Virus record (IMG/VR): IMGVR_UViG_2675903661_000011
Span: 1 to 5,134 of that record
Length of the DNA stretch: 5,134 bases
Origin: a virus
Lineage: Duplodnaviria; Heunggongvirae; Uroviricota; Caudoviricetes
Reading direction: 5' to 3' (one strand)
In this document: piece by piece, positions 3,001-5,134 of the stretch
How the letters are laid out: every line of letters begins with the position of its first letter
Position numbering within the stretch: position 1 is the first letter of the stretch
Position numbers: made by a program

Positions 3001-5134
3001 ACAGTTGAACGGGATTATTTCACCCTCAGAGAGCGGTTGATGATGATGCAGAAGCAGCTGGAAGGGGCGCAGGAATATATCCGCACTCAGTGCCTGAAAT
3101 AAGTTTTGCTGATGCGCCGTATCGTCGCCGTATTCCCGTATTAACAGAGACCGCAGCCCGACAGGGAGACTCCTCTGCGAGAGTGTGCGGGGATAATCAA
3201 AAACGATACACACCGGGGTTTACCGCGTTAACGGAGCGCGGCGTTGTCCCCTCATAGTCGCCTGTCCGGTGCGATGGTGGAAGAAACTGGATTTGTTGCA
3301 ACTGATAACCATTATCATTTTCTCGGGTCCTTTCCGGCATATGGACCCGTTACGGGGCGGCGACCTCGCGGGTTTTCGCTATTTATGAAAATTTTTCGGG
3401 AAAAAGCATGTCAGTTCTTCTTGTTGTTAACCTATTGTTTTTAAAGAAATAATCATCAAGAAAGAAACGACATCAGAACGCTGAAAAATCTGTCTTTTTT
3501 GGCATTTCATGTCGTAACTGATTTTTGATAAGGAATTGCTGAATGAATGTTAATAAAAAGAAGCTTGCTGAAATCTTTAATGTCGATATACGCACTATTG
3601 ATCGCTGGCAAACTCAGGGGCTCCCTCAGATATCTGGTGGAGGAAAAGGTGTTGAGGTCATCTTTGATTCTGCGAAGGCGATCGAATGGTATGCTCAGCG
3701 CGAAGCTGATATTGAAAATGAAAAACTCCGTAAAGAGGTCGAGGATTTGAGGGCGGCCAGCGAATCAGACCTTCAGCCCGGCACCATTGATTACGAACGT
3801 TACCGACTGACGAAGGCACAGGCAGATGCACAGGAACTGAAAAATGCCCGCGACAGTGGGCAGGTCATTGATACAGGGTTTTGCCTTTTTGCTCTGGGAA
3901 GACTGGCACAGGAGATCTCTGCCATTCTTGACTCCATTCCATTGTCCATGCAGAGACAGTTTCCGGCACTGACGCCCGCTATGCTTGATTTCCTGAAAAC
4001 CGATATAGCAAAGGCGGCAAACCGATGCGCATCAACGGCAGAGAAGTTACCGGAGATGCTGGATGAATACCTCAGAGAAGCAGCTAAATAACTTTGCTGT
4101 TGTTTGTGGAGTGGCACTTCGTGGGCTTTTACGCCCACTGCCTGTAACCACCGTTGAATGGGCCGATCAAAATTATTATTTGCCCCCGGAGTCCTCTTAT
4201 CTTGCTGGGCGGTGGAAGACGTTGCCCTTTCAGGTGGCAATAATGAACTGCATGGGTAATGACCGGATCCGCACAATTAATCTTATAAAATCAGCTCGAG
4301 TCGGTTACACCAAAATGCTGATGGGCGTTATTGGTTACTTTATTGAGCATAAAAACCGTAACAGTCTTCTGTTTCAGCCTACGGATTCTGCCGCTGAAGA
4401 TTTTATGAAGTCTCATGTGGAGTCAACATTACGGGATGTTCCCTGTCTGAAAATTCTTTCCCCTTGGCTGGGGCGTAAGCACCGGGATAACACACTGACA
4501 TTAAAAAGATTCACGTCCCGTGTGGGGTTCTGGTGCCTGGGTGGTGCTGCCGCCAAAAACTACCGTGAAAAATCAGTGGATGTGGTCTGCTATGACGAAC
4601 TTTCCTCATTCGAGCCGGATGTCGAAAAAGAGGGCTCGCCAACCCTGCTGGGGGATAAGCGTATTGAGGGCTCGGTATGGCCAAAATCCATTCGCGGCTC
4701 GACGCCAAAAATAAAAGGCTCCTGCCAGATCGAAAAAGCGGCCAACGAGTCGGCACATTTCATGCGTTTTTATGTGCCCTGCCCGCACTGTGGGGAGGAG
4801 CAGTATCTGAAATTTGGCGATGAATCCACGCCTTTTGGCCTTAAATGGGAGAAGGACAGCCCCGAAAGCGTTTTCTATCTCTGTGAACATCATGGCTGCG
4901 TGATCCATCAGTCTGAGCTTGACCAGAGCAACGGGCGGTGGATCTGTGAAAACACGGGCATGTGGACCCGTGACGGCCTGACGTTTTTCAGCGCTGCGGG
5001 TAATGAAATTCCGCCGCCGCGCTCCATCACTTTCCATATCTGGACGGCGTACAGTCCGTTCACCACCTGGGTACAGATAGTCTATGACTGGCTGGATGCA
5101 CTGAAAGATCGTAAGCGTTAACGGAGTGCCGTAT

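What the first reader, a model, noticed from the sequence alone, without database searches (positions are those of the whole stretch)
4063..5121. Large terminase (gpA homolog) ends at an in-frame stop after 352 codons
The ORF aligns with lambda gpA from residue 1 through the ...IWTAYSPFTTWVQIV.DW... region, then terminates (DRKR-TAA at 5119-5121). Lambda gpA is 641 aa and carries essential C-terminal functions (endonuclease/P-loop region and portal-binding tail) beyond this point. Either the gene is disrupted here (point nonsense mutation, frameshift, or insertion of a mobile element, intron or homing-endonuclease cassette immediately downstream), which would make this a defective prophage, or this lineage uses an unusual split terminase. 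Only 13 bp of downstream sequence are in the window, so the cause cannot be resolved here. The other two frames of those 13 bp do not obviously continue the gpA sequence.
Basis: partly seen in the sequence, partly recalled or inferred. Interest (0 to 1): 0.55.

Follow-up and report, generated by a model that had tools for sequence, protein, structure and literature searches.

The report
Terminase gene cut by IS66 insertion
The phage DNA-packaging gene stops early because a common jumping gene (an IS66-family insertion sequence) landed in its middle and brought its own stop codon, an ordinary way for a prophage in a Shiga-toxin E. coli lineage to become defective.

Summary
ORF 4063-5121 encodes 352 aa, and residues 1-349 align without gaps to lambda gpA 1-349 at 69% identity.

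The cause can be seen inside the window. Similarity to intact 642-aa terminase genes, up to 99.9% identical, stops at base 5110. Bases 5111-5134 (GTAAGCGTTAACGGAGTGCCGTAT) are the terminal inverted repeat of a 2,532-bp IS66-family insertion sequence. The TAA at 5119-5121 and residues 350-352 (RKR) come from the IS.

The exact 352-aa protein is on 25 contigs in the public collection. All 10 that I fetched have the same junction and continue into the IS with no mismatches. Most stop 27-127 nt inside it, as short-read contigs do at a repeat.

One draft assembly (LM996837.1) crosses the IS. Its far side is the last 36 codons of a side tail-fibre gene, with no target-site duplication. Compared with an intact relative (STEC434), 19.7 kb is missing, from terminase codon 350 to almost the end of the tail-fibre gene.

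The truncated protein keeps the ATPase domain and loses almost all of the nuclease domain. I found no evidence for a nonsense mutation, a sequencing error, an intron or a natural split terminase. This is a known, ordinary kind of event.

The parts
3355..3366 (+). Exact match to the lambda 12-nt cohesive-end sequence (cosN, GGGCGGCGACCT), 177 nt upstream of Nu1. The packaging site is still present.
   Evidence: one exact match, 0.02 expected by chance. Its position relative to Nu1 matches lambda, where cos is at nt 1 and nu1 starts at 191.
3543..4091 (+). Terminase small subunit gene (Nu1 homologue, 182 aa), intact. It overlaps the start of the large-subunit gene by 29 nt, as in lambda.
   Evidence: Pfam Phage_Nu1, 272.7 bits, covering profile positions 1-163 of 164. 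Annotated as terminase small subunit in relatives.
4063..5110 (+). The native part of the terminase large-subunit gene (gpA homologue): codons 1-349 plus the first base of codon 350. It encodes the Nu1-binding N-terminus and the complete ATPase domain.
   Evidence: 69% identity to lambda gpA 1-349. Pfam GpA_ATPase at 47-293. Megablast matches to intact genes all end at window base 5110.
5103..5110 (.). GAAAGATC, the 8 bp next to the IS end. This is the expected copy of the target-site duplication from the original insertion.
   Evidence: The intact gene reads CTGAAAGATC|CCAACGG. The same IS in L003 is flanked by an 8-bp duplication, TGAAAATC. The second copy was not seen: in L004 the far flank is TATCTTAC.
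5111..5134 (-). The first 24 nt of the terminal inverted repeat, at the tnpC-proximal end, of a 2,532-bp IS66-family insertion sequence. Its tnpA-tnpB-tnpC genes lie on the minus strand beyond the end of the window.
   Evidence: 24/24 identical to the ends of IS66-family copies in L002, L003, L004 and L005. The 30-nt query spanning the junction (5105-5134, 24 nt of it IS) hits 1,109 of 5,426 E. coli genomes, up to 14 places per genome. The downstream genes match NCBIfam transpos_IS66, IS66_TnpB and IS66 TnpA.
5119..5121 (+). The TAA stop codon that ends the ORF. It lies inside the IS inverted repeat (GTAAGCGTTAA).
   Evidence: Read directly from the sequence and compared with the intact gene, which continues GAT CCC AAC GGC CTG AAA.

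Best explanation
An IS66-family insertion sequence of 2,532 bp transposed into the lambda-type terminase large-subunit gene of a lambdoid prophage in a Shiga-toxin-producing E. coli lineage. It carries tnpA, tnpB and tnpC, has inverted repeats starting GTAAGCG, and makes 8-bp target duplications. It landed between the first and second bases of codon 350. Translation runs 11 nt into the IS inverted repeat, adds Arg-Lys-Arg and stops at an IS-borne TAA. The resulting 352-aa product keeps the Nu1-binding N-terminus and the ATPase domain. It lacks almost all of the nuclease domain and the C-terminal end, where lambda gpA is known to bind the portal, so by inference it cannot cut cos or dock on proheads. 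In the only assembly that crosses the IS, the far side joins the last 36 codons of the side tail-fibre gene. About 19.7 kb, from the rest of A through the head and tail genes and most of stf, has therefore been lost. The likely routes are an IS-mediated adjacent deletion or recombination between two IS copies. The result is a defective prophage that still has its lysis genes, cos, Nu1 and half a terminase. The window ends 24 nt inside the IS, most likely because a short-read assembler stopped at this multi-copy repeat. Shown: the IS end, the junction, its recurrence, the domain loss, and the deletion in LM996837.1. Inferred: that the window's own genome carries the same deletion, and how the deletion arose.
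For: Matches to intact terminase genes in complete E. coli genomes and in phages all stop at window base 5110. The intact sequence is shown. Bases 5111-5134 are identical to the ends of IS66-family elements, and the L003 copy has an 8-bp target duplication. The inverted repeats match at 18 of the first 24 positions and start GTAAGCGT, as reported for another IS66-family element (PMC12888890). The element's three ORFs match NCBIfam transpos_IS66 (440 bits) and IS66_TnpB (122 bits) above their cut-offs, and an IS66 TnpA model above its cut-off. Pfam IS66 domains are listed. Identical IS copies are present in many STEC genomes. The exact 352-aa protein is on 25 contigs. All 10 fetched loci have the same junction and continue into the IS with no mismatches, over the full 2,532 bp in L004 and L005. 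L004 aligns colinearly to the intact STEC434 prophage on both sides of the IS, with breakpoints 19,688 bp apart. The flanks GAAAGATC and TATCTTAC do not match each other. Domain loss is shown.
Against: The window holds only 24 nt of the IS, so its own far junction was not seen. The deletion rests on one draft contig (LM996837.1, no Ns), and no complete RefSeq E. coli genome has any of the three junctions. The same assembly has a second contig (L005, an Stx2 prophage) with the same junction. That contig ends exactly at the far end of the IS, so that copy could be a simple insertion or an artefact of repeat resolution by the assembler. A 286-aa C-terminal terminase fragment with the expected sequence exists on a 4.88-Mb contig whose context I could not inspect.
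Confidence: 0.93

Rival explanations
1. The window's genome has a simple IS66 insertion with no deletion. The remaining 293 codons of the terminase gene and the head and tail genes lie directly beyond the 2.5-kb IS, flanked by a GAAAGATC duplication.
For: This IS normally makes 8-bp duplications. L005 ends exactly at the far end of the IS, so what follows it is unknown. If this were the case, an in-frame ATG in the IS left end would open a 306-aa ORF continuing into the nuclease domain. C-terminal fragments of this terminase do exist in the protein collection.
Against: The predicted junction was not found in 5,426 complete E. coli genomes or in IMG/VR. The predicted fusion protein was not found either. 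No cluster representative covers its IS-derived N-terminus, and four haplotype versions are absent by exact look-up. The only contig that crosses the IS shows the deletion. These searches could have missed it, because short-read contigs break at the IS.
Confidence: 0.2
2. The stop comes from a point nonsense mutation, a frameshift or a base-calling or assembly error in an otherwise intact gene.
For: None beyond the bare fact of a premature stop.
Against: The 24 nt after 5110 show no similarity to the intact gene and match an IS end at every base. The same junction appears in four NCBI assemblies and in at least five independent sequencing runs.
Confidence: 0.01
3. This is a natural split terminase, or a gene interrupted by an intron, intein or homing-endonuclease cassette, and it still yields an active enzyme.
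For: The break falls between the Pfam ATPase domain (47-293) and most of the nuclease domain (323-601).
Against: The intervening element is a standard IS66-family element with tnpA, tnpB and tnpC, and has no intron or homing-endonuclease features. Relatives at 99.9% DNA identity have one intact 642-aa gene. In L004 no second half follows the IS.
Confidence: 0.01

Closest known systems
IS-disrupted terminase genes in defective lambdoid prophages of EHEC, for example O157 Sakai Sp4, whose nu1 is interrupted by an IS (Asadulghani et al. 2009, PMC2669165)
   Same: A lambda-type packaging gene in an STEC lambdoid prophage is inactivated by an insertion sequence while cos is kept. It is part of a pool of prophages made defective by IS insertions and deletions.
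   Different: Here the large subunit is hit rather than the small one. The IS belongs to the IS66 family. In the one spanning assembly the event is coupled to a 19.7-kb loss of the morphogenesis genes.
IS66-family insertion sequences of E. coli (IS679, ISEc8, ISEc43 and similar; Han et al. 2001; Gourbeyre et al. 2010, cited from my own knowledge and from the reference list)
   Same: Three ORFs (tnpA, tnpB, tnpC), inverted repeats starting GTAAGCG, an 8-bp target duplication, a length of about 2.5 kb, and many copies per genome.
   Different: None that matters. It is 96.8% identical to copies that PGAP labels as the ISEc43 family. I could not check the exact ISfinder name.
Lambda gpA and phage 21 gp2, large terminase subunits
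   Same: The N-terminal 349 residues are colinear with lambda gpA at 69% identity. Nu1 lies upstream with an overlapping start, and cosN is identical.
   Different: It lacks residues 350-642, that is almost all of the GpA_nuclease domain and the C-terminus, so it is a fragment and not a functional member.

Membership tests
IS66-family insertion sequence | A DDE transposase of the IS66 type (TnpC) | tested here: met
   The 537-aa ORF next to the junction in L004 scores 440 bits against NCBIfam transpos_IS66 (cut-off 180). Pfam DDE_Tnp_IS66, zf-IS66 and LZ_Tnp_IS66 also hit. These genes lie outside the window, in loci that share the identical junction.
IS66-family insertion sequence | Accessory genes tnpA and tnpB upstream of tnpC | tested here: met
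   IS66_TnpB scores 121.9 bits (cut-off 50). IS66_ISRel24_TnpA scores 79.9 bits (cut-off 74).
IS66-family insertion sequence | Imperfect terminal inverted repeats starting 5'-GTAAGCG | tested here: met
   The two ends are GTAAGCGTTAACGGAGTGCCGTAT and GTAAGCGTAAACTGACCGCCGTAT, matching at 18 of 24 positions. The first of these is window 5111-5134. Another IS66-family element has the same repeat start (PMC12888890).
IS66-family insertion sequence | An 8-bp target-site duplication | tested here: inconclusive
   Met for the identical IS in L003, which is flanked by TGAAAATC on both sides. At this locus only one flank (GAAAGATC) is visible. In L004 the other flank is TATCTTAC, which fits a later deletion or recombination.
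Lambda-type large terminase (gpA family) | N-terminal GpA_ATPase domain | tested here: met
   Pfam PF05876, 188.6 bits, residues 47-293 covering profile positions 3-247 of 247. The KSARVGYT and YDEL motifs align with lambda's.
Lambda-type large terminase (gpA family) | C-terminal GpA_nuclease domain and the portal-binding end | tested here: not met
   PF20454 does not hit the window protein. It hits residues 323-601 of the intact relative. The coding sequence for it is replaced by the IS from 5111 onward.

The most novel reading that the evidence does not exclude
The retained module of cos, Nu1 and an ATPase-only gpA fragment might be more than debris. It is identical in two prophage contexts within one assembly and recurs across at least 25 contigs. 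It could let the defective prophage, Stx-encoding in one copy, be packaged in trans by a co-resident phage with the same cos specificity, as shown for Sakai Sp4. Alternatively, the truncated subunit could act as a dominant-negative inhibitor of packaging by related superinfecting phages.
Probability: 0.05. Interest if true: 0.45.

Novelty: already known. Interest (0 to 1): 0.1.

Why it matters
It matters little beyond annotation. The 352-aa "terminase" should be annotated as a pseudogene fragment fused to an IS end, and the prophage as defective. A premature stop at the very end of a short-read contig should prompt a check for an IS terminal repeat. For STEC epidemiology, the junction CTGAAAGATC|GTAAGCGTTAACGG is a ready lineage marker. 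Whether the linked Stx2 prophage can still be mobilised by a helper phage affects how the toxin gene can spread.

Tried and rejected
1. I looked for the window's exact junction in complete E. coli genomes and in phage records and found none. Every match stops at 5110.
2. I looked for the reciprocal junction (IS left end + GAAAGATCCCAACGG). It is absent from complete E. coli genomes and from IMG/VR.
3. The window junction is also absent from IMG/VR.
4. I searched for the hypothetical fusion protein MATYGGQFTLTKDPNGLK.... No cluster representative includes its N-terminus.
5. I tried ten exact variants of that protein. All four versions with the IS-derived start are absent. Three fragments with later starts exist, but they could equally be contig-end partials.
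6. I looked for the IS-stf junction in complete genomes and found none.
7. The PDB sequence search with the intact terminase gave no hits, so domain limits come from Pfam only.
8. Rfam found nothing in the window.
9. Han et al. 2001 (PMC95320) is not held in the library, so the IS66 family definition rests partly on my own knowledge.
10. I did not use the genome-contig scan. It holds one genome per species and cannot resolve a strain-level insertion.

Full report
**Observation**

The window carries the late region of a lambdoid prophage. In order it holds:
- the 3' end of a DUF6645 (esterase-like) gene
- DUF1378 and DUF826 genes
- a P21-type holin
- a 185-aa ORF of unknown function
- the lysozyme gene
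- Rz with Rz1 embedded in it
- an exact lambda cosN at 3355-3366
- Nu1 at 3543-4091
- the ORF in question at 4063-5121

That ORF encodes 352 aa. Residues 1-349 align with lambda gpA residues 1-349 at 69% identity without a gap. Lambda gpA is 641 aa. An intact relative in E. coli STEC434 is 99.9% identical in DNA, is 642 aa long, and aligns with lambda gpA over residues 1-635 of 642, to lambda residue 638 of 641. Pfam finds the complete GpA_ATPase domain (47-293) in the window protein. It does not find GpA_nuclease, which covers residues 323-601 of the intact relative.

**What causes the stop**

Megablast of window 3500-5134 against 5,426 complete E. coli genomes and against 50,697 phage records gives many hits. 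Every one of them ends at query base 1611, which is window base 5110. At that point the intact gene reads CTG AAA GAT CCC AAC GGC CTG AAA ACT TTT GTG AAC (…LKDPNGLKTFVN…). The window instead reads CTG AAA GAT C|GT AAG CGT TAA CGGAGTGCCGTAT.

A 30-nt query spanning the junction (5105-5134, of which 24 nt are IS) hits 1,109 genomes, up to 14 places per genome, on chromosomes and plasmids. In every case I inspected, the matching sequence is the outer end of an element annotated tnpA-tnpB-tnpC of the IS66 family.

The evidence that this is an IS66-family element is as follows.
- The copy on plasmid p_STEC435_1 is bounded by GTAAGCG…CGCTTAC and flanked by an 8-bp direct repeat, TGAAAATC.
- The element is 2,532 bp long, and its two ends match at 18 of the first 24 positions.
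- Its ORFs match NCBIfam transpos_IS66 (440 bits, cut-off 180), IS66_TnpB (122 bits, cut-off 50) and an IS66 TnpA model.
- Another IS66-family element is reported to have inverted repeats beginning GTAAGCGT (PMC12888890).
- Identical copies occur in many STEC genomes. Copies 96.8% identical are labelled by PGAP as the ISEc43 family.

The IS therefore begins at 5111. The last native base is the C of codon 350. Residues R350, K351, R352 and the TAA at 5119-5121 are encoded by the IS inverted repeat.

**Is it real?**

The exact 352-aa protein is in the public protein collection, on 25 contigs. I fetched ten loci, from four NCBI assemblies and at least five sequencing runs. All have the identical junction and continue into the IS with no mismatches. 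Eight of them stop 27-127 nt inside the IS, which is how de Bruijn assemblers end contigs at a repeat. The window stops 24 nt inside it, and its left end also lies in a gene that is repeated among prophages. The window is therefore probably a whole short-read contig (inference). A sequencing error, a nonsense mutation and a frameshift are all excluded.

**What lies beyond the IS**

Two contigs of assembly GCA_000944015.1 contain the full IS.

In LM996837.1 (locus L004, no Ns) the IS occupies 5225-7756. It is followed by TATCTTACAGGCC…, which is the last 36 codons of a side tail-fibre gene. After that come a DUF4376 gene, a YadA-anchor protein and an S6-peptidase autotransporter. The two flanks, GAAAGATC and TATCTTAC, do not form a target duplication.

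Aligned with the intact STEC434 prophage, the two sides of L004 are colinear and in the same orientation. Their breakpoints are 19,688 bp apart. The missing stretch holds the rest of A, then W, the portal and the head genes, the tail genes through J, hok, and most of stf. In this genome, then, the IS marks a 19.7-kb deletion. It could have arisen by IS-mediated adjacent deletion or by recombination between two IS copies, and I cannot tell which.

The second contig (L005) is an Stx2-encoding prophage with RIP and SLT_beta genes. It has the same junction and is identical to the window from base 3140 onward. It ends exactly at the far end of the IS, so its continuation is unknown. It may also be an artefact of repeat resolution.

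**Search for the other half of the gene**

I searched for the reciprocal junction that a simple insertion would leave, …TTTACGCTTAC|GAAAGATCCCAACGG. It is not in complete E. coli genomes or in IMG/VR. The fusion ORF it would create starts at an in-frame ATG in the IS end, MATYGGQFTLTKDPNGLK…. That ORF is not represented among cluster representatives, and four haplotype versions of it are absent by exact look-up.

These negative results are weak. The lineage is also missing from the complete-genome set for the junction that is certainly real, and short-read contigs break at the IS. I put about 0.2 on a simple insertion in the window's own genome.

**Mechanism and consequences**

From what is known of lambda terminase, gpA's N-terminus binds Nu1, its N-terminal domain is the packaging ATPase, its C-terminal domain nicks cos, and its extreme C-terminus binds the portal. 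This is my own knowledge, and it agrees with the Pfam domain split. The 352-aa product could still bind Nu1 and perhaps ATP. It cannot cut cos or dock on proheads. With the head and tail genes also gone, the prophage cannot make particles.

A close precedent is O157 Sakai Sp4. Its nu1 gene is interrupted by an IS, and its DNA was still packaged, most likely by the terminase of Sp14, which has a nearly identical cos (PMC2669165). Here cos and Nu1 are intact, so rescue by a helper phage is conceivable but untested.

**Verdict**

This is an IS66-family insertion, most likely with an associated deletion, in a prophage terminase gene. It is a known and common kind of event. Its list of causes included the right one, and the split-terminase idea is not supported. 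Interest is low.

Noticed in passing
window 1209-1766 (+): A 185-aa ORF sits between the holin and the endolysin. It has no Pfam hit and matches only PHROGs of unknown function (phrog_1085, E = 8e-111). Most differences between the window and L004 fall in this region (883-1703). In L004 the holin and this ORF are called as one 197-aa gene. Related prophages have a shorter YdfR-family gene at this position.
   Followed up: partly
L004 and L005 (both from GCA_000944015.1), equivalent to window 3140-5134: One assembly holds two contigs with the same A'::IS66 junction. They are identical from window base 3140 to the far end of the IS but diverge upstream in the lysis region. One of them carries Stx2-like toxin genes (RIP plus SLT_beta). 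This is either a real duplication or exchange between prophages after the insertion, or an assembler copying a repeat onto two contig ends.
   Followed up: partly
L004 7757-15235: Beyond the tail-fibre remnant, the prophage carries a DUF4376 gene, a 414-aa YadA-anchor protein and a 1,330-aa S6-peptidase autotransporter. From memory, this resembles the eib/eaa cargo of ECOR-9 prophages, but I did not test that. The same block is 99.8% identical in STEC1590, next to the ompW remnant.
   Followed up: no
L004 7700-7756 joined to L001 5604 onward (hypothetical construct): The tnpA-proximal end of this IS is open in the terminase reading frame and has an in-frame ATG 32 nt inside the element. A simple insertion at this site would therefore create a 306-aa ORF, MATYGGQFTLT-KDPNGLK…, encoding the nuclease half. 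No such protein was found.
   Followed up: yes
window 1-297 and 5111-5134: Both ends of the window lie in sequences repeated within STEC genomes: the 3' end of a DUF6645 esterase-like gene found in several prophages, and the IS66 end. This suggests the window is a complete short-read contig bounded by repeats.
   Followed up: partly
L001 1234-3536 (STEC434, NZ_CP129383): The closest intact relative of this terminase region has a different IS, the IS21-like ISEc12 (istA and istB), inserted between the lysis genes and Nu1. The same prophage type has therefore been hit by insertion sequences more than once, independently.
   Followed up: no
protein clusters P0002 and P0003: Thousands of partial versions of this terminase are in the protein collection: 2,333 and 1,185 cluster members, mostly labelled 'partial'. 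They include internally deleted forms (P0001, 394 aa) and a Nu1-gpA nuclease fusion (P0006, 440 aa). A 286-aa C-terminal fragment sits on a 4.88-Mb contig whose context could not be retrieved.
   Followed up: partly
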